Source: a virus
DNA: 64,000 nt
IMG/VR virus record: IMGVR_UViG_3300025865_000006
Coordinates: 32,001 to 96,000 of that record
Strand: one strand, 5' to 3'
Part shown: positions 6,410 to 39,657 of the stretch, piece after piece
Layout of the letters: every line of letters starts with the position of its first letter
How positions within the stretch are numbered: the first letter of the stretch is position 1
Translations under genes and position numbers: made by a program
The notes under the pieces: generated by a model
What the model was told of the DNA's origin: nothing
Seen by the model: only the letters and a program-made list of their open reading frames with translations
The model's database searches: none

Positions 6410-6677
6410 TTTGGCCTATCCGAGTGGCTTGAAAATATACATTGATGGTCAAGATGCAACTTATTTCCTTTTTAATTCTAATACGTTTAATCCTACATCA
6501 GAGAGAAACATTCTTCGTGATATAAACATAACCGCGTTCTTACGAAAGGCTACTTCTCCTATGAAGATAAAGGATCGTAATTATAAAGGGGACGCTGGAA
6601 ATTCCTCTGTACACACAATCGAGATTACTGCTGAGGATGGAAACGGCCGCGTGGAATGTCGTGTTGAAGTTAGGTAG
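6402..6677 (+). CDS. Small tail-associated protein
   Basis: LKIYIDG...DINIT...HTIEIT...GRVE beta-sandwich pattern. True start may be TTG at 6411. Confidence 0.5.
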   Translation: MVNLAYPSGLKIYIDGQDATYFLFNSNTFNPTSERNILRDINITAFLRKATSPMKIKDRNYKGDAGNSSVHTIEITAEDGNGRVECRVEVR

Positions 6678-6690
6678 GTAATGTGATACA

Positions 6691-6885
6691 ATGATTAAGT
6701 GGCAAATAGCGTCATCAATGGACCGAGACTATATACTTGAACTGGCAAAGTCCAAGGGGTGGCTTGAACAGCCTCCTAGGGTACAGGTAAAGAGGATACG
6801 GATGGATGAAGTATGGTGGGTAATAGAGCCTTATGAAGATGACTGCAACTGCCCTGATCTTGTTTATCCGGGGAGTTATGCATGA
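6691..6885 (+). CDS. Hypothetical protein
   Basis: Fills the gap in the operon; ATGA overlap with the next gene. Confidence 0.5.
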   Translation: MIKWQIASSMDRDYILELAKSKGWLEQPPRVQVKRIRMDEVWWVIEPYEDDCNCPDLVYPGSYA

Positions 6886-34138: not shown

Positions 34139-34528
34139 ATGCCTAATCCGATTATCATTGATACCGTCTTCACTGGCGATGTGAATGACGATGAGGATGA
34201 TCCTTGTAATTGGAAGAATGTGACAATTCCCTCTAAGTATGAAGTTTGTAGTACTTGCCAAGGTGAGGGAAAGTCAAGCACATATCTTGGTGCATATACT
34301 CAGTCCGATATGGACGAGATGAGCGAAGAGTTTATTGAAGACTACTTTGCCGGTTATTATGATAAGCCTTGCACCGAATGCAAAGGAAATCGCGTAATCC
34401 TAGTTCCTGATCGTGAGAATGCTGATCCTGATCTATTGAAGGAATGGGATAAGCGAGAGGAAGAGAATTATCAGACTGAGCAGATGTATCGAATGGAGTT
34501 GGAGGCCGAATATGGTACTAACTACTAA
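34139..34528 (+). CDS. Protein with DnaJ-type CxxCxGxG zinc-finger motifs
   Basis: CSTCQGEG and CTECKGNR. Confidence 0.6.
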   Translation: MPNPIIIDTVFTGDVNDDEDDPCNWKNVTIPSKYEVCSTCQGEGKSSTYLGAYTQSDMDEMSEEFIEDYFAGYYDKPCTECKGNRVILVPDRENADPDLLKEWDKREEENYQTEQMYRMELEAEYGTNY

Positions 34529-35241
34529 GCAAACAGAGTTGCGTATCAATCAGCTTGTAAAGAAGACTCTGCTAATAGAGCGAGCTAATAAGGGTTTGGG
34601 AACCTTCCAAGATATGACTCACCCTATTGCCCAGTTTCGTACAATGATGGTTGCCCATAATGATGTGGTGGGTGTCATCAATTCTCTAATTGACTACGTT
34701 GAGGTTTTGAAGCAGCGAGTCGAGGAACTGGAAAATGGGCGCGGATAAGGAAGTTTGTTGGTGGGGAACATTCGATAATAGTCCCCGCGATCCCAAACAC
34801 TTTGTCCAAGTCGATTGGATGAGGTTTATTCATGGTGTAAACAACCTGCTAACGAATGAGGAAAATCCCGAAGAGGATACAGATTATTCTGATATTGGTG
34901 GATTTGGTTCACCTAAACTTTTAGGGAGGAACATTTATGATCGAGTCCACAAGAAGTTGTGGGCCGGTTGTGAGCAATACCCTTCCTTTACAGTTTACAC
35001 TGATAATGGGCGCAGGGAAGCATTCATTGAATGCTATGATCGAGAGATGGAAGAGATTGCAAGTCGCGTATTTGGAGAGCTTCACCCATGAACGTAGATA
35101 TGTGGTTAAGCCTAATCGATAGGATCATGTGGTTCGTCCTAATTGTTTCTGCGTTTTTCCTTGTGGGTATCGCAGCAGCGCGATTAGCACTATTTGTAGT
35201 TGATCTGCTGAAAGGTGCTCTGATATACTAATATAGAGCCA

Positions 35242-35316
35242 TCAGGGGCTAGTTTATGAGGTAAAACACCGGGTTGTGGCCCCGAAAATGGAGTTCGAGT
35301 CTCCTTCCCCTGACCA
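35242..35316 (+). tRNA. tRNA-His(GTG), atypical
   Basis: D stem GTTT/AAAC; anticodon loop TTGTGGC; T loop TTCGAGT; encoded CCA. Several stem mismatches and an A discriminator. Confidence 0.75.
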
Positions 35317-35331
35317 ATTTAGAAAGGGATG

Positions 35332-36829
35332 GTATGAAAAACAAAGTTGGAACAGGAATTCTCTTCCTACTTATTGATGTGTTTTGGTGGGTGGGGGCAG
35401 TAACAAGCTTTTATCAGGGGTTGTTCGTGGAGCATAGCAGTGATCTTATCATTCTAAATGGCCTTCTTGGTGCAATGTTTCTTGTTGCAGCAAGTTGCCT
35501 TACATTCGTCATTGCCTACTTTGTTGGTGAAGGCTTCAAAGACGAGAGGTAAATCGTGAGAAAACTTATAGTAGACGGAAAGGAGTATACCTATACTGTA
35601 GGTAAATCCTATGCGATTATCAAGTTTGAGGGCCTAAAGATCGCAACCATTCCCCTGTGTGATATAAAAGGTTCTTGGGATAACTTGGAACGTGGTCGAT
35701 GGAAGAAGACCCGCGATGGAATGGTTTTTCCAAGTGAGATAGTGGAATACATTAGAGAAAGGAAGTAGAGATGGGATGCTACATTGATCCCTTGGAAGGC
35801 ACCAAGGAACAGTTTCTTATGAAGCATGGAAAGGAAGTGTATAAGAAGGACTTTTCTTGGGGGACTAGGCCCGAATTTTGCCTTCCGGTTGTTTTGGTGG
35901 ATAACAGACAGTTTACGGCTGCCGGTGTTGCTTATTCTAAGAGAGAATTGGAAGCATTTACCGATCCAACCGATCTTCGTCCGAAGCGATACTTTTATGT
36001 TGCTCTGGATGATCTAAAGGATGTTTCTCCAATCGAAGATTATCTGAAAGACTAGGGAGTATAGTGCAAGGTATCTACGTCAATTATCGTCGGCCCAAGT
36101 CAAAGAAAGAGGTTGTTGCCGCAGTAAAGGCTAATCCAAGTAAGGTTAGTCTAGAGGCTACTTCACTTTTTGGCAATGAGTATGATGGACCTATTACCGA
36201 AATGCCTGTCGATAAGATGGTGTATGTTGTTGGTCCTGATCCATATACTGCGCGCAACTTTTATCTCAATCTGACCCGAAAGGAAGATGGAACATTCAAG
36301 GTGGCCTAATGCATGAATGCAAACTGATCAGCGTATGCGGTGAAATGCTTTGTGGCATGTGCTTTGCAGAGAAGATGGAGACTGAAAAACTGATTGCTCC
36401 AAAGCGTCCACCAATTGAGATGGTTATGATCCATAAGGTAGTTATGAGGAAAGTGAAATGAGCGATTGTCGGCACTGGTATCATGAATCGATTGACGATG
36501 TTGAGCATTGCAAGGATTGCAACGTCATTCTCGATGTGAAGCCTTTTTGGGAAGGCAAAATCACCATCGGAAAGTTGGAACATCTGTACGAAATTGAAGG
36601 TGAAGACTTTGATTTCAAGGCCCTGATTGAAGATCAGGTTGGGACAACGGTTGAAATTGATACTGTTAGGATTATGGACGGTCCAAATTATTGGGATCGT
36701 CCATACTTGGTGGTATTCACTGTTGGTAGGGCTAGGTTGACGGCAACAGTATCGGTAGCTAAGTCCGATCATTATGTTCCTACGGATCAGTTTTATACTC
36801 CCGCAGTTGAAGAGGAAGTGACTCAGTAA
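35332..36829 (+). other. Small hypothetical CDSs (~35332-35552 membrane protein, 35556-35768, 35771-36055, 36064-36309, 36458-36829)
   Basis: Operon packing with RBSs. Confidence 0.6.
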
Positions 36830-36836
36830 TAGAATA

Positions 36837-36977
36837 CGGCTAGGATACTCGGCTAGTACCCTGAAAGGCGTACGAGGGGTTACGAAAATGTCTAGCGAGT
36901 CGGTCAAGGTATAAACCGACATGATTCTACAATTGTTTGAAGTCGCACAATTGTAGAAAAGAGTCCTGATCTAAGCC
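36837..36977 (+). ncRNA. Structured RNA element (motif copy A plus 12-bp hairpin) upstream of a strong SD
   Basis: GTCGGT/ACCGAC and TTCTACAATTGT/ACAATTGTAGAA stems; shares sequence blocks with 37739-37848. Confidence 0.6.
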
Positions 36978-36994
36978 AAAAGGAGGTGAAAATC

Positions 36995-37126
36995 ATGGAA
37001 TATGTTGCAATGAAATGCGGCTTCTGCAAAGAGGAACATTATTACGGTAAGCTTGTCGAAAAAGGCAAGGAAGACGTAAAGTGCCCAAATTGCAATAAAC
37101 TTCTTGTGGTGGTACCTAAGAAGTAG
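36995..37126 (+). CDS. 43-aa zinc-ribbon protein (not in ORF track)
   Basis: Perfect SD AAGGAGGTGA; MEYVAMKCGFCKEEHYYGKLVEKGKEDVKCPNCNKLLVVVPKK. Confidence 0.8.
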   Translation: MEYVAMKCGFCKEEHYYGKLVEKGKEDVKCPNCNKLLVVVPKK

Positions 37127-37133
37127 TAATTAT

Positions 37134-37207
37134 GATGGCGAAGGTTAGGTTGGCTAGACCTAATCTATTCGATGCCGTAAGGATAGGTTCGAGTCCTATC
37201 ACTACCT
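37134..37207 (+). pseudogene. tRNA-like element / pseudo-tRNA
   Basis: Intact T arm ATAGG-TTCGAGT-CCTAT and D arm GGTT/GACC at canonical spacing. Anticodon stem is unpaired (loop ATTCGAT), acceptor 5/7 paired, no CCA. Confidence 0.55.
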
Positions 37208-37850
37208 TTAGGTAGGTCGGGTATGAGTAGCGGAATAGCCCTTCGAATAGGAAGCTAGAGCGCGAGTCCGAAATAAATATCTGATAAGATATTTATTAGG
37301 TTCTTGACTCTAGGCCAGATATTCCTTCCAGAACGGGAGGCTCTAGGCCAACGCAATTCAGTTGGTGGGTGAAAACTTTTCGGGTGCCGAGAATAAAAGC
37401 CGAAAGCCGGATAAGTAACCGGCAAATCGTTTCCTAGTTTAGAATAAACTAGGGCGGGAAATATACATTGCAGTCCCGGTATGTCAACCTGCAAACCGGA
37501 TAATGTAACCGGTACACAAATCTATCTGGTCGAAGGCTAGGGGGATTGTCCTAGCTTATCAGTGTTCAAATCCCGCTGATAAGAAGTTAGAGTTAGAAAA
37601 GACCAATCGCTGGATACGGAGAAAGCCGTGTACAATCCGTCTGCGTTAGCGGACCTGTTGTAAAACAGAGTTAGAAATAGGATGGTTCGTGACTCTAGGG
37701 CCAGAAATTTTTTACAGGCTGGATAACAGGTTTTACGTCTAGGATACTGCTCTCAATAGTCAGAGAGTAAAGTTATGCAATGCCTAGCGTGCTGGTAAAC
37801 TGCAAACGCATTGAGCGTGGTACATGTGCAGACGGATATAAACCAGACCA
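37208..37850 (+). ncRNA. Large (~640 nt) structured non-coding RNA candidate between tRNA genes
   Basis: No credible ORF; more than a dozen local hairpins plus long-range pairings (see findings). Confidence 0.7.
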
Positions 37851-37853
37851 ATT

Positions 37854-37941
37854 GGATCGGGTGAGCATGTTTTGGTACGCTCAGGTGACTGTAAATCACC
37901 CCTCTTAGAGTTTGTAGGTTCAAATCCTATCCGGTCCACCA
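37854..37941 (+). tRNA. tRNA-Tyr(GTA)
   Basis: Acceptor GGATCGG/CCGGTCC; GGTGA-CTGTAAA-TCACC anticodon arm; long variable arm; GTAGG-TTCAAAT-CCTAT; ACCA end. Confidence 0.95.
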
Positions 37942-37946
37942 AAGAT

Positions 37947-38226
37947 TTAGGTATTCGATGTAGATAATTATCGTTGGACGGAACAATAATGGCTCTCCGT
38001 GGTAGCACCACAGCGGGAAATGTGGCCGCTAAATTAGAAATAGTTTGGCGCGGTATAGCCTAGATAATTATCTACATGGAGTATCTAACTCCGTAAAGAG
38101 TACGATAGGGACGCCGATATTACCACTTGTCGTCAAGAGACTCGTGAGTCCTACCAATTGAAGTAGGTCGATGTGGAATCCCCTCACAATGCGTATACTG
38201 CTCGATAAGATGTGATATCGAGCATC
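37947..38226 (+). ncRNA. Two further structured RNA candidates (37947-38088 and ~38090-38226)
   Basis: Long closing helix ATGTAGATAATTATC/GATAATTATCTACAT; GAAA-tetraloop hairpin; downstream multi-hairpin unit. Confidence 0.55.
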
Positions 38227-38245
38227 CGATTAGTTGGAGAAAGCC

Positions 38246-39657
38246 ATGTCAGAAACTTGGGGAAAAGTTGATATACAGGTTTCGGGGGAGTCTGAAATTC
38301 ACTTAGTCCCTGTTTTGGACGGAGATGTATTATCTACTCATCAGCCTAGTACGATGTGCAAATGCCTCCCTGAGGTACTACAGGATAAAACTTGGGTAAC
38401 TAATAGTCGTGTTGTAAACCATAGAGAACCCGGTTGGGCTGGCTGTAACAAGGAAAGGGTAAATTAAAATGAGTAAACGTAGTGGTCTTTCTCTTCTTGA
38501 AGAGTTGAAGAGGGGCTGGATAGATATCGGAAGATATCGCTACATGTTTCGTAAGATTGATATGGAGACTTGGAGGGATAAGATTTGCCCTATCTGTAAT
38601 AAGGGCTTTACTAGCGAACCCAATTTTAGCTATGAAAGCTATTCAATGCATTGGGGCTGCTACGATTCAGATAAAGGAGAAAAATGGGTTTTTGACCGCG
38701 AGGACGGATACGATCTGCCCTTTAGCATCCCCCATCTACCCGAGGGTACAGATACAGATGATTTACCCTGATACGTTTATGGAGATTCTAAATGAAGCAA
38801 TTTCAGAAACTCTTTAGAGTCACATTTACTTGTGATAAATGTGCAAAAATGGAAAGCATGGAACTGACTGAGGGACAAGCAGAGGATGAGGGATATACTG
38901 GAAAGTGGTATTCCCCGCCCGGATGGGTGCTAGGGCATCTTGATGCGCGCTATACAGGAGATAGCATTCCTACATTACAGTTTTGCAGTTGCGACTGTAG
39001 AGATAGATATCTTCGAGCCTACATTACTGGTATTCAAGCAAAGTTCTTTATCTAAGAATAGGAGAAAGAAAATGATTCCGACGATTGGTAACAAGGTGGA
39101 TATCCTGCGTCATAGTGACGATAAGGGTAGGGATACCCTTACGCGAATTATGACCCCTGAGAAGCGTGCAACGCGCCACGCAAAGAGTATTCGTACAGCA
39201 AGCCATAAGCCACAGGCAAATAGCAGCGGCTATGCTTTTCGGAATTCTTGTCGAAGCTATGGCTGCACTTGTGTAAAGCATGGGTCAACGCGAAAGCGAG
39301 ACTGAAAATGAAAGAACTTTTGGTGGGCCTAGTTGTACTTAGTGTAATCTTTTTTCTCTTCGGAATGACAGCACTTACAAATAACCTTATATGGGCCTTA
39401 CCCCTAGTTCTTCCAACGGTATTCCTTATGGCCTACATGATGGGAGACACTATTTTGGATATTTGGAGGCATAGGTGAGTTGGAGGCTTTATTGCAAGTG
39501 GTGCAAGTACTGTATTGTGGTGGGTGATCGCGGAATGCGAGGCCAAGATATGGGTGCAGGGGTAGAGGCCGCTAATTATATGCAAGAACACATTGAAACG
39601 GCTCATCAAAAGACTTGGGATGAGTTTTGTAGAAAGGAAGAGAATGCTCAACGCTAG
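38246..39657 (+). other. Small hypothetical CDSs (~38246-38467, 38469-38771, 38792-39055, ~39072-39305, ~39308-39478, 39475-39657)
   Basis: Operon packing; several Zn-finger-like or membrane peptides. Confidence 0.55.

What the first reader, a model, noticed from the sequence alone, without database searches (positions are those of the whole stretch)
37208..37850. ~640-nt densely structured non-coding RNA flanked by tRNA-like elements
Seen local hairpins: CTAGAG...AATAAATATCT-gata-AGATATTTATT...CTCTAG (37255-37313), CCTTCC/GGGAGG, CCAAC/GTTGG, twin loops GCCGG-ATAAGTAA-CCGGC (37406) and ACCGG-ATAATGTAA-CCGGT (37495), CCTAGTTTA/TAAACTAGG, and CTTATCAGTG-TTCAAATCC-CGCTGATAAG with a T-loop-like sequence. 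Seen long-range pairs: GGCCAGATA(37313)/TATCTGGTC(37523), TAGAGTTA(37588)/TGACTCTA(37690), ATCCGTCTGC(37635)/GCAGACGGAT(37828). Seen repeats: CTCTAG(G)GCCA x3, AGAGTTAGAAA x2, CTGCAAAC x2. Known: large ornate RNAs such as GOLLD and ROOL occur next to tRNAs in phages and have no settled function. Inference: a member of that size class or a new class. With the duplicated motif and the Zn-ribbon gene, this is the best candidate for an undescribed system here.
Basis: partly seen in the sequence, partly recalled or inferred. Interest (0 to 1): 0.85.

Follow-up and report, generated by a model that had tools for sequence, protein, structure and literature searches.

The report
Tandem cloverleaf-like RNA array in phage
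This gene-free stretch of an uncultured phage is not one giant RNA: it holds two diverged tandem copies of a smaller folded RNA unit, which one related phage carries once, sitting upstream of a real tyrosine tRNA gene, and its function is still unknown.

Summary
The stretch has no credible ORF and folds far better than shuffles (z -6.4 on the + strand). It matches no Rfam family, so it is not GOLLD, ROOL, RNase P, tmRNA or an intron. It is also not one 640-nt RNA. It is the middle of a 1.4-kb RNA island (36835-38246) in a 117-kb phage that has 29 tRNAs and a Ro60 gene.

The core is a roughly 180-nt four-way-junction ("cloverleaf-like") unit, present twice: Yl-1 (37136-37317) and Yl-2 (37525-37705). 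Each is followed by a second, less well-defined motif. A real tRNA-Tyr(GUA) follows at 37854-37941.

One related phage (G009) has the unit once, in the same place after the same 43-aa zinc-ribbon gene. There, 42 nt of the RNA are 100% identical while the neighbouring gene is 74% identical. A covariance model built from the two orthologues finds the paralogue Yl-2 (26 bits, E about 1e-5).

The "5' tRNA-like element" is the start of Yl-1. No other homologues and no RNA data were found, so function is inferred only.

The scan has noted phage Ro60/RNA islands on other genomes, but found no look-alike of this one.

The parts
36807..36835 (+). sigma-70-like promoter match (TTGAAG-17-TAGAAT) just upstream of the island
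   Evidence: It matches 9 of 12 positions. The scan found 10 such sites in 5 kb against 9.6 expected, so this is a weak lead only.
36835..36925 (+). Motif A (CUAGGAUAC ... YCUAGCG ... GUCGGU-loop-ACCGAC), copy 1
   Evidence: Repeats. The 3' half is 80% identical over 54 nt to L162 1846-1899 in G009. RNAalifold gives a conserved 6-bp outer helix but no covariation support (term +0.12).
36995..37126 (+). 43-aa CxxC...CPxC zinc-ribbon ORF, the only credible gene inside the island
   Evidence: It is conserved in G009 (L162 1530-1652) inside a 222-nt alignment at 74% nt identity. Only sub-threshold zinc-ribbon Pfam matches were found.
37136..37317 (+). Yl-1: a four-way-junction RNA unit. Layout: P1 37136-39/37314-17; GAAG linker; H 37144-51/37157-64; P3 37165-74/37241-50 with an insert at 37177-37231 (T-arm hairpin plus a 5-bp hairpin); GAAG linker; X1 hairpin 37255-37313.
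   Evidence: Pair lists. The G009 orthologue folds into exactly this junction (z -5.05, 0 of 200 shuffles, MFE = centroid). 42 of 43 nt are identical to G009 over 37134-37176. Model R1 scores it at 153 bits, but it is a training sequence. Caveat: G0's own MFE draws P3 in another register.
37318..37524 (+). S1: a spacer of about 7 hairpins, including the duplicated alpha (37378-37423) and beta (37468-37513) modules
   Evidence: Fold z -4.28. In alpha and beta the helix UUUCGG/CCGAAA becomes UUGCAG/CUGCAA (6/6 pairs each), followed by GCCGG/CCGGC or ACCGG/CCGGU hairpins. There is no counterpart in G009.
37525..37705 (+). Yl-2: paralogue of Yl-1. Layout: P1 37525-31/37699-705; GAA linker; H 37535-42/37549-56; T-loop hairpin 37557-64/37574-81 in place of P3; AGAAG linker; X2 stem 37587-95/37690-98.
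   Evidence: The MFE is this four-way junction (z -4.25). Pair lists. Model R1, built without it, finds 37524-37588 at 26.1 bits, E 8.8e-06, while the next hit scores 9.5 bits. The 3' strand is 82% identical over 34 nt to that of Yl-1.
37734..37850 (+). Motif B: a diverged second copy of motif A, and the immediate 5' leader of tRNA-Tyr
   Evidence: On its own it folds no better than shuffles (z -0.26).
37854..37941 (+). tRNA-Tyr (anticodon GUA, long variable arm, encoded CCA end)
   Evidence: All 24 cloverleaf pairs form. It is 79% identical to the phage's main tRNA-Tyr at G000 6643-6728. blastn hits tRNA-Tyr genes of 7 Bacillus phage records. ARAGORN finds it only at a relaxed threshold. In Rfam its best match is tRNA-Sec at 23.1 bits.
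37947..38088 (+). L domain: an element closed by a 10 + 15-bp helix
   Evidence: 10/10 and 15/15 pairs. G009 has a differently sequenced domain closed by a 13-bp helix at the same relative place.
38095..38232 (+). R domain ending in the conserved hairpin CAAUGCGUAYACUG-stem-...GUGA-stem (38199-38224)
   Evidence: 86% identical over 50 nt to L162 2159-2208, with a second G009 copy at 2037-2072. The stems are UGCUCGAU/AUCGAGCA, UGCCCGAU/AUCGGGCA and UGUGGAU/AUCCAUA; all pair, and they include compensatory changes.

Best explanation
The finding is the central part of a 1.4-kb, same-strand, non-coding RNA island in the early-gene block of a 117-kb phage. It is not one ornate RNA. It is a modular array that grew by tandem duplication of a two-part unit.

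Part one of the unit (Yl) is a 130-180-nt RNA folded as a cloverleaf-like four-way junction. It has a short closing helix, a (C)GAAG linker, an 8-bp hairpin, a long arm whose tip is exchangeable, a second GAAG linker, and a variable hairpin. Part two is a roughly 90-200-nt A/B motif.

Shown:
- the fold statistics;
- the duplication;
- the single-copy orthologue in phage G009 in the same position after the same zinc-ribbon gene;
- much stronger conservation of the RNA core than of the neighbouring coding sequence;
- compensatory changes between paralogues;
- a genuine tRNA-Tyr immediately downstream.

Inferred:
- The island is transcribed rightward with the early genes as a long precursor.
- Maturation of tRNA-Tyr by RNase P necessarily releases the upstream structured RNA at 37853/37854.
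- The Yl units then act as stable protein-binding scaffold RNAs whose long arm carries swappable cargo. In Yl-1 the cargo is a tRNA-like T-arm/closed-acceptor module, in Yl-2 a T-loop hairpin, and in G009 a plain hairpin.
- The partner is unknown. My odds are about 0.2 for the phage Ro60 (Y-RNA-like use of the GNCGAAG motif), about 0.15 for the adjacent 43-aa zinc-ribbon protein, and the rest for host tRNA-handling or RNA-decay enzymes or something else.
For: - Structure on the + strand: z -6.36 against -4.52 on the - strand. Sub-domains score z -4.25 to -4.28.
- Excess of long perfect inverted repeats.
- Non-coding under any single stop reassignment.
- Tandem duplication: the global alignment of 37127-37524 with 37515-37860 scores 138.5, against 92.4 +/- 8.5 in 300 dinucleotide shuffles (maximum 128.5) and 88.2 +/- 10.4 for 85 other window segments (maximum 111). 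Local matches share offsets of 385-392.
- Orthologue: blastn finds an island in 1 of 7 further Ro60-bearing relatives (G009, E 5e-35). It has the same upstream ORF and zinc-ribbon ORF.
- Selection on the RNA: 42 of 43 nt are identical at 37134-37176, while the 222-nt alignment over the zinc-ribbon gene and this block is 74% identical and the upstream ORF is 63% identical.
- The G009 unit folds as P1/H/P3/X with z -5.05. Yl-2 folds the same way.
- All helices pair: 4/4 to 10/10, except one U-U in P3 of G0.
- Covariation between Yl-1 and Yl-2: H has 1 two-sided and 3 one-sided changes. P3 against the T-loop hairpin is 8-9 pairs with most positions changed on both sides. P1 gains a U-G pair through matching insertions on both strands.
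- Model R1, built from the two orthologues, finds Yl-2 at 26.1 bits, E 8.8e-06. The next hit in 15 kb scores 9.5 bits.
- No + strand promoter-like or terminator-like site lies between 36836 and 37960, so tRNA-Tyr has to be read through the array.
- tRNA-Tyr is intact.
Against: - There are only three Yl sequences (two orthologues and one paralogue), so covariation rests on very few independent events. MAFFT could not align them over their whole length, and the pair lists come from my own coordinates.
- In G0 the energy minimum draws P3 in a different register.
- The A/B motif has no covariation support, and motif B folds no better than shuffles.
- S1, Yl-2, motif B and the tRNA are absent from G009. 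Those G0-specific parts could be young, drifting duplicates.
- Three complete relatives (G002, G007, G008) lack the unit, so it is dispensable.
- There is no transcript evidence at all (none was listed).
- Promoter and terminator scans are at background level.
- Alternative pairings exist: 37313-21 or 37699-705 with 37523-31, and 37589 or 37667 with 37690-98.
Confidence: 0.6

Rival explanations
1. One ~640-nt ornate RNA of the GOLLD/ROOL size class, folding as a whole through the long-range pairs 37313/37523, 37588/37690 and 37635/37828.
For: The whole stretch folds at -214 kcal/mol, z -6.36, and the MFE uses the 37313/37523 and 37635/37828 pairs. All three complements are perfect or G-U only. 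GOLLD and ROOL are phage or prophage RNAs often found near tRNA islands (passages of bioRxiv 10.1101/2024.12.08.627333).
Against: No Rfam match at E<=10 other than the weak tRNA-type, tRNA-Sec and mir-1542 matches listed in Tried and rejected. The stretch is an internal duplication. The only orthologous island has one unit and none of the long-range partners. The start at 37208 cuts the conserved unit 37136-37317. The 37313/37523 pair competes with the P1 helix of Yl-2, which the paralogue and orthologue architecture supports.
Confidence: 0.08
2. Yl-1 and Yl-2 are Y-RNA-like partners of the phage's Ro60. The closing stem plus the GNCGAAG motif is the Ro60 site, and the arms (one a tRNA-like module, as in YrlA) tether an effector.
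For: The phage encodes Ro60/TROVE (62.5 and 55.9 bits). All 3 Yl sequences carry GGCGAAG or GUCGAAG directly after the 5' strand of the closing helix. This fits the GNCGAAN0-1G motif reported near the 5' end of YrlA RNAs (passage of PMC4201824) and the CGAA motif shown to matter for a phage Ro60 (passages of PMC12135203). The motif occurs 3 times in the 1.1-kb island against 42 on the + strand of 117 kb. The long arm of Yl-1 holds a T arm followed by a loop-closed helix, the YrlA order. The same design of scaffold plus tRNA-like cargo occurs in the units beside Ro60.
Against: The YrlA model does not hit the island at E<=10, although it hits a Ro60-adjacent unit at 30.9 bits. The island lies 32 kb from Ro60, whereas Chen et al. 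required 4 kb. The Ro60-adjacent units of G0 and G002 share a different handle (UAGUG ... UACUUC), which is absent from the island. Three complete Ro60-bearing relatives lack Yl. The tRNA-like module is missing in the G009 orthologue. Model R1 finds nothing beside Ro60 in G0 or G002.
Confidence: 0.2
3. The array is the RNA partner, or the structured untranslated region, of the 43-aa zinc-ribbon gene. The protein would bind the Yl unit that starts 9 nt after its stop codon, for autoregulation or as a small RNP.
For: Gene and Yl unit are adjacent in both phages that have either one (2 of 2). It is the only ORF in the island. Motif A and a 12-bp hairpin abut its ribosome-binding site in G0.
Against: Adjacency in two related genomes is weak evidence. 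No family assignment reaches threshold. More than 1 kb of structured RNA is far more than a regulatory site needs. In G009 nothing structured precedes the gene.
Confidence: 0.15
4. The G0-specific parts (S1, Yl-2, motif B) are recent, functionless duplication debris around a transposed tRNA-Tyr copy. Only the Yl-1 core is under selection.
For: These parts are absent from G009. Patches copy the tRNA-Tyr T arm (88% over 17 nt), its T loop (10/10) and its leader plus 5' end (74% over 23 nt). Motif B is not stably folded.
Against: Yl-2 keeps all four helices through many two-sided changes, and keeps both GAAG linkers. That is not expected of drift. S1 folds at z -4.28. Phage genomes rarely keep 0.7 kb of useless DNA (general knowledge, not tested).
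Confidence: 0.15
5. A DNA-level element (replication origin, packaging site or operator cluster) rather than RNA.
For: Short direct repeats are present. A strong promoter-like site lies on the - strand at 37487-37460 (11 of 12).
Against: Helices contain G-U pairs that would be A-C mismatches on the other strand (7 in the Yl helices). The + strand folds better than the - strand. GC content is at the genome average with no AT-rich tract. The repeats are diverged and 90-390 nt apart, unlike iterons.
Confidence: 0.04

Closest known systems
YrlA-type bacterial and phage Y RNAs bound by Ro60/Rsr (Rfam RF02553; Chen et al. 2014, PMC4201824; Thermus phage phiLo Yrl1/Yrl2, PMC12135203)
   Same: Small structured RNAs in a Ro60-encoding phage. 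A closing stem is followed by a (G)NCGAAG motif near the 5' end. One member carries a T arm plus a loop-closed helix inside a long stem, the YrlA order. The design is modular: scaffold plus cargo.
   Different: No YrlA model match. The island is 32 kb from Ro60 instead of within 4 kb. The units are 131-182 nt against 80-130 nt. They form a four-way junction with two GAAG linkers instead of stem-loop-stem. The tRNA-like module is not conserved in the orthologue. The clade's own Ro60-adjacent RNAs use a different handle.
GOLLD and ROOL large ornate RNAs (Rfam; cryo-EM paper, bioRxiv 10.1101/2024.12.08.627333)
   Same: Phage-borne, next to tRNA genes, heavily structured, and no known protein partner or function.
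   Different: No covariance-model match. This is not a single large fold but tandem ~180-nt units with spacers. It is known from two phages only. No evidence for multimer-forming palindromic loops was sought or seen.
Stable non-tRNA RNAs co-transcribed and co-processed with phage tRNA genes, and tRNA-like punctuation elements
   Same: Structured RNA lies directly upstream of a tRNA on the same strand, so tRNA 5' processing would set its 3' end.
   Different: Here the upstream RNA is a duplicated, conserved junction fold of its own. The orthologous island has no tRNA, so tRNA linkage is not essential.

Membership tests
GOLLD / ROOL (also OLE, RNase P, tmRNA, group I/II introns) | Match to the family's Rfam covariance model | tested here: not met
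   Nothing at gathering score in the window except tRNA-His. At E<=10 only tRNA-type matches and one mir-1542 match appear, in 34500-38700 and 37100-37960. The same holds for the G009 island. ARAGORN reports a 'permuted tmRNA' only at the relaxed threshold that also yields 22 extra dubious calls. That these families are in Rfam 15 is recalled, not shown by a call.
GOLLD / ROOL | One large (roughly 580 to over 800 nt) conserved fold | tested here: not met
   Internal tandem duplication. The orthologous island keeps one ~131-nt unit only.
GOLLD / ROOL | Phage or prophage location near tRNA genes | tested here: met
   117-kb phage record with 29 tRNAs. tRNA-Tyr abuts the stretch.
YrlA / Y RNA | Match to Rfam RF02553 | tested here: not met
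   No hit at E<=10. As a positive control, a Ro60-adjacent unit in the same genome scores 30.9 bits, itself below the 69-bit gathering score.
YrlA / Y RNA | Encoded within about 4 kb of the Ro60 gene on the same strand (criterion of Chen et al. 2014) | tested here: not met
   Ro60 lies at G000 101.8-103.4 kb and the island at 68.8-70.2 kb. They are on the same strand, 32 kb apart.
YrlA / Y RNA | GNCGAAN0-1G motif near the 5' end | tested here: met
   GGCGAAG in Yl-1 of G0 and G009, and GUCGAAG in Yl-2, each right after the 5' strand of P1.
YrlA / Y RNA | Nearly invariant T-arm and D-arm mimic of tRNA | tested here: inconclusive
   Yl-1 of G0 has a T arm (GAUAGG-UUCGAGU-CCUAUC) and Yl-2 a T-loop-like 9-nt loop. 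The G009 orthologue has neither.
YrlA / Y RNA | Binding by Ro60 | not testable with these tools
   Needs a gel shift or co-purification.
tRNA (3' flank, 37854-37941) | Cloverleaf, anticodon loop, CCA end, homology to tRNA-Tyr genes | tested here: met
   24/24 pairs, loop CUGUAAA, 3' ACCA. 79% identity to the phage's main tRNA-Tyr and alignment with those of G001 and G002. The score is below the default thresholds of ARAGORN and RF00005.
tRNA (5' flank, 37134-37207) | Cloverleaf scoring above the tRNA model threshold | tested here: not met
   15.1 bits against a 29-bit gathering score, with no anticodon arm and 5 of 7 acceptor pairs. The T arm is absent in the orthologue.

The most novel reading that the evidence does not exclude
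The Yl units are a previously undescribed class of phage scaffold RNA. It would be a cloverleaf-like four-way junction with two GAAG linkers and one plug-in arm that can carry a tRNA-like module. It would serve as a second, Ro60-distal kind of Y-RNA-like adaptor, or as the RNA half of an RNP with the adjacent 43-aa zinc-ribbon protein, and would diversify by tandem duplication inside the early region.
Probability: 0.2. Interest if true: 0.7.

Novelty: new variant of a known kind. Interest (0 to 1): 0.42.

Why it matters
Large phages with many tRNAs and a Ro60 gene keep turning up with gene-free "RNA islands" whose products are unknown.

This case gives a concrete, testable unit: a ~130-180-nt junction fold with a 42-nt invariant core, one orthologue and one paralogue. 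It also shows how such islands grow by duplication and cargo exchange. And it warns that a long, well-folding gene-free stretch need not be one giant RNA.

If the unit binds Ro60 or the neighbouring zinc-ribbon protein, it would widen the known repertoire of viral adaptor RNAs. If it does not, it remains a lineage-restricted curiosity.

Tried and rejected
Searches for homologues that found nothing useful:
- blastn against 50,697 phage records matched only the tRNA-Tyr part, in 7 records.
- The flanking proteins (123 aa, 100 aa, 359 aa) have no relatives in viral contigs, and the 123-aa alignment has none in metagenome contigs.
- blastn of the island on G001-G003 gave only tRNA-like or chance matches. 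The flanking ORFs are absent there.
- Pattern CCGGATAA..GTAACCGG: 120 stretches, all chance by follow-up blastn.
- Pattern for the X hairpin: 4 stretches, all apparently coding.
- Pattern for the shared 3' strand in metagenome contigs: 0.
- Invariant-block pattern: only G009 in viral contigs, 0 in genome contigs.
- Motif A pattern in genome contigs: 0.
- Motif regexes in G001 and G002: nothing.
- The 123-aa ORF has two homologues in the big protein collection, P0001 and P0002. Their contigs could not be fetched.
- Sequencing runs: no RNA holder was listed.

Ideas considered and dropped:
- The GUCCGA...UUGAC bulged helix in hairpin X1 as a vertebrate-type Ro site (the 3' partner sequence is recalled). 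GTCCGA..TTGAC occurs 3 times on the + strand of this genome, and X1 is not conserved in G009.
- A group I intron in a tRNA, a two-piece tmRNA and hammerhead-like cores. None has Rfam support.
- Coding under another genetic code.
- MAFFT alignments of the three Yl units (A5, A6, A7) misplace the 3' strands or the one-base gap, so the count of structure pairs was not run on them.
- A weak R1 hit in G002 (13.9 bits) is a terminator-like hairpin.

The supplementary tables of Chen et al. 2014, which list phage YrlA loci, could not be seen and might bear on whether similar RNAs were reported. My literature searches were only. I claim no exhaustive search of print.
Full report
**Context.** The window is bases 32001-96000 of a 117,070-bp IMG/VR phage record, estimated 98% complete. 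ARAGORN finds 29 tRNA genes in it. It also has a Ro60/TROVE gene at 101.8-103.4 kb, followed by Y-RNA-like units, one of which matches Rfam YrlA at 30.9 bits, below the gathering score. The finding lies in a block of small + strand early genes. Apart from a 43-aa zinc-ribbon ORF (36995-37126), the stretch 36830-38246 has no credible ORF. There are 76 stops in the three + frames of 37127-38246, and no frame opens up under any single stop reassignment. The short ORFs there have no Pfam or PHROG match.

**Observation.** The 643-nt stretch folds at -214.1 kcal/mol, z -6.36 against 20 dinucleotide shuffles. The opposite strand gives z -4.52. Perfect inverted repeats of 10 nt or more number 2, against a mean of 0.14 in 500 shuffles (6 of 500 reach 2). 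By sub-block, 37313-37531 scores z -4.28 and 37520-37712 z -4.25. 37127-37330 scores z -2.91. 37706-37853 scores only z -0.26, with 79 of 200 shuffles as good.

**Known families.** Rfam 15 gives nothing at gathering score except tRNA-His. At E<=10 it gives only a tRNA-Sec-type match over 37855-37936, a 15.1-bit tRNA match over 37134-37207 and a mir-1542 match on the 11-bp hairpin. The element at 37854-37941 is a genuine tRNA-Tyr(GUA):
- all 24 cloverleaf pairs form, the anticodon loop is CUGUAAA, and the 3' end is ACCA;
- it is 79% identical to the phage's main tRNA-Tyr;
- it aligns with the tRNA-Tyr genes of two relatives, with a compensated anticodon stem;
- blastn matches tRNA-Tyr genes in 7 Bacillus phage records.

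Default ARAGORN misses it.

**Internal anatomy.** The stretch is a diverged tandem duplication. The alignment of 37127-37524 with 37515-37860 scores 138.5. That compares with 92.4 +/- 8.5 for 300 dinucleotide shuffles (maximum 128.5) and 88.2 +/- 10.4 for 85 other segments of the window (maximum 111). Local matches share offsets of 385-392. Two blocks are kept in both copies.
- Block 1 is UGG(N)CGAAGG, an 8-bp hairpin and a further hairpin (37134-37215 and 37523-37583).
- Block 2 is GGUUCNUGACUCUAGG(G)CCAGAWAU (37299-37331 and 37684-37717, 82% over 34 nt).

Together they define two units of 182 and 181 nt: Yl-1 (37136-37317) and Yl-2 (37525-37705). Each is closed by a helix between block 1 and block 2. 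The MFE of Yl-2 is a four-way junction: P1, GAA, hairpin H, T-loop hairpin, AGAAG, stem X2, P1. Between and after the units lie two further segments:
- S1 (37318-37524), with the duplicated alpha and beta modules;
- motif B (37734-37850), a diverged copy of motif A (36835-36925).

Patches of the array copy pieces of tRNA-Tyr: the T arm at 88% over 17 nt, the T loop at 10/10, and the leader plus 5' end at 74% over 23 nt.

**Relatives.** Searches with flanking proteins, DNA patterns and blastn mostly failed; they are listed in Tried and rejected. A DnaB-type helicase query gave relatives G001-G003. A Ro60 alignment gave 8 loci, from G002 and G004-G010. The complete relative G002 is syntenic overall but has dense small ORFs and a lone tRNA-Lys where G0 has the island.

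blastn of the island on the 7 further Ro60-bearing records found a homologous island in one, G009 (105.7 kb, 88% complete): E 5e-35 for the zinc-ribbon gene plus the start of Yl-1, with further matches to motif A and to the last hairpin. In locus L162 the order is:
- a 130-aa ORF (homologue of my upstream 123-aa ORF);
- the zinc-ribbon ORF;
- about 640 nt without credible ORFs;
- the next gene.

No tRNA and no Rfam family is found there.

**What is conserved.** The upstream ORF is 63% identical. The 222-nt alignment spanning the zinc-ribbon gene and the start of Yl-1 is 74% identical. Within it, 42 of 43 nt at 37134-37176 are identical. Also conserved are GGRAUAGCCCWUCGAAUAGGAAGC (92%), the 3' half of motif A (80% over 54 nt) and the final hairpin motif (86%).

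The G009 unit (L162 1661-1791, 131 nt) folds with z -5.05, with MFE equal to centroid, as P1 (UGGC/GCCA), GAAG, H, a long P3 arm, GAAG, a hairpin X of unrelated sequence, P1. This is the same junction as in Yl-2, and in Yl-1 if P3 is drawn as CUAUUCGAUG/CUUCGAAUAG (9/10 pairs in G0, 10/10 in G009). G0's own MFE uses another register there, so P3 in G0 rests on the comparison.

The tip of P3 differs between the members. In G0 it is a T-arm hairpin plus a 5-bp loop-closed helix. In G009 it is a plain hairpin. Yl-2 has a T-loop hairpin in place of the whole arm. The 5' 'tRNA-like element' of the finding is therefore the first half of Yl-1, and its T arm is not conserved.

**Formal test of paralogy.** A covariance model (R1) was built from the 5' two-thirds of the two orthologues, with H, P3 and P3b as structure. 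With filters off over 15 kb, it finds Yl-2 at 26.1 bits, E 8.8e-06, aligned end to end. The linkers are kept and both helices are compensated. The next hit scores 9.5 bits. R1 finds no further copy:
- the ten whole records were searched with a loose first look only, and just the training sequences were scored (2 of 10 records);
- an unfiltered search of three loci (L181, L006, L025), two of which cover the Ro60 neighbourhoods of G0 and G002, also found none.

A pattern for the linker plus hairpin matches exactly only G009 among 9 records. The family as known therefore has three members in two phages.

**Function.** Nothing here shows function. No + strand promoter-like or terminator-like site lies between 36836 and 37960 (that scan is at background level overall). 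tRNA-Tyr is therefore most simply transcribed through the array, and its 5' maturation would release the upstream RNA. This is an inference.

In its favour:
- the GNCGAAG motif lies at the 5' junction of all three units;
- Yl-1 has a YrlA-like order of T arm and closed helix.

Against it:
- there is no YrlA model hit;
- the island is 32 kb from Ro60;
- the Ro60-adjacent units of G0 and G002 have a different conserved handle;
- Yl is absent from three complete Ro60-bearing relatives.

The zinc-ribbon gene is adjacent in 2 of 2 genomes, but it has no family assignment. I therefore commit only to this: a modular array of stable scaffold RNAs that grew by tandem duplication, with the partner unresolved.

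**Verdict.** The stretch is a new, lineage-restricted variant of the phage tRNA-linked or Y-like structured RNAs, not a GOLLD/ROOL-class giant. Its interest is moderate. The fold is real and under selection in its core, but three sequences and no expression data leave both the structure details and the function open.

Noticed in passing
window 37854-37941: A second, diverged tRNA-Tyr(GUA) sits alone in the early-gene block. It is 79% identical to the copy in the main tRNA cluster and has a fully compensated anticodon stem. Default ARAGORN and the Rfam tRNA threshold both miss it. Phage tRNA-Tyr has been reported to counter a retron defence (search listing and abstract openings of PMC11555353 and bioRxiv 10.1101/2023.03.15.532788). 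An early-expressed variant copy could serve that purpose.
   Followed up: partly
G000 103.8-105.0 kb (L006 5800-7000) and G002 98.1-99.3 kb: Ro60 is followed by a series of Y-like units that share the handle UAGUG.. / UACUUC / AAUYCUCC around variable inserts. One unit matches Rfam YrlA at 30.9 bits. The handle is kept between two phages whose Ro60 proteins are 57% identical.
   Followed up: partly
window 36995-37126 and L162 1530-1652: A 43/40-aa CxxC...CPxC zinc-ribbon ORF with a strong ribosome-binding site is conserved in the two phages that carry the Yl unit. Its stop codon lies 9 nt before the unit.
   Followed up: partly
window 38182-38229; L162 2037-2072 and 2159-2208: A conserved hairpin motif, CAAUGCGUAYACUG-stem-(A)UGUGA-stem, sits just before the next gene. 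The three copies have different but fully paired stems.
   Followed up: partly
window 37947-38088; L162 about 1890-1988: In both phages a domain closed by a long AU-rich helix (10 + 15 bp in G0, 13 bp in G009) follows the A/B motif. The sequences are unrelated.
   Followed up: partly
window 36458-36829: The 123-aa ORF upstream of the island has paired Cys/His motifs and no Pfam or PHROG family. It has homologues at 81-84% identity on two short metagenome contigs (P0001, P0002) and a 130-aa homologue in G009 (63% nt identity over the 227 nt that aligned).
   Followed up: partly
G002 78.3-86.8 kb: The complete relative G002 has six ORF-free gaps of 257-725 nt in this region. These may be RNA islands of its own and were not examined, except for one terminator-like hairpin at 83.0 kb.
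   Followed up: no
window 35243-35316 and 35380-35463: A lone tRNA-His lies in the early block. It is followed by a weak tRNA-like call (Asp, anticodon AUC) that appears only at ARAGORN's relaxed threshold.
   Followed up: no
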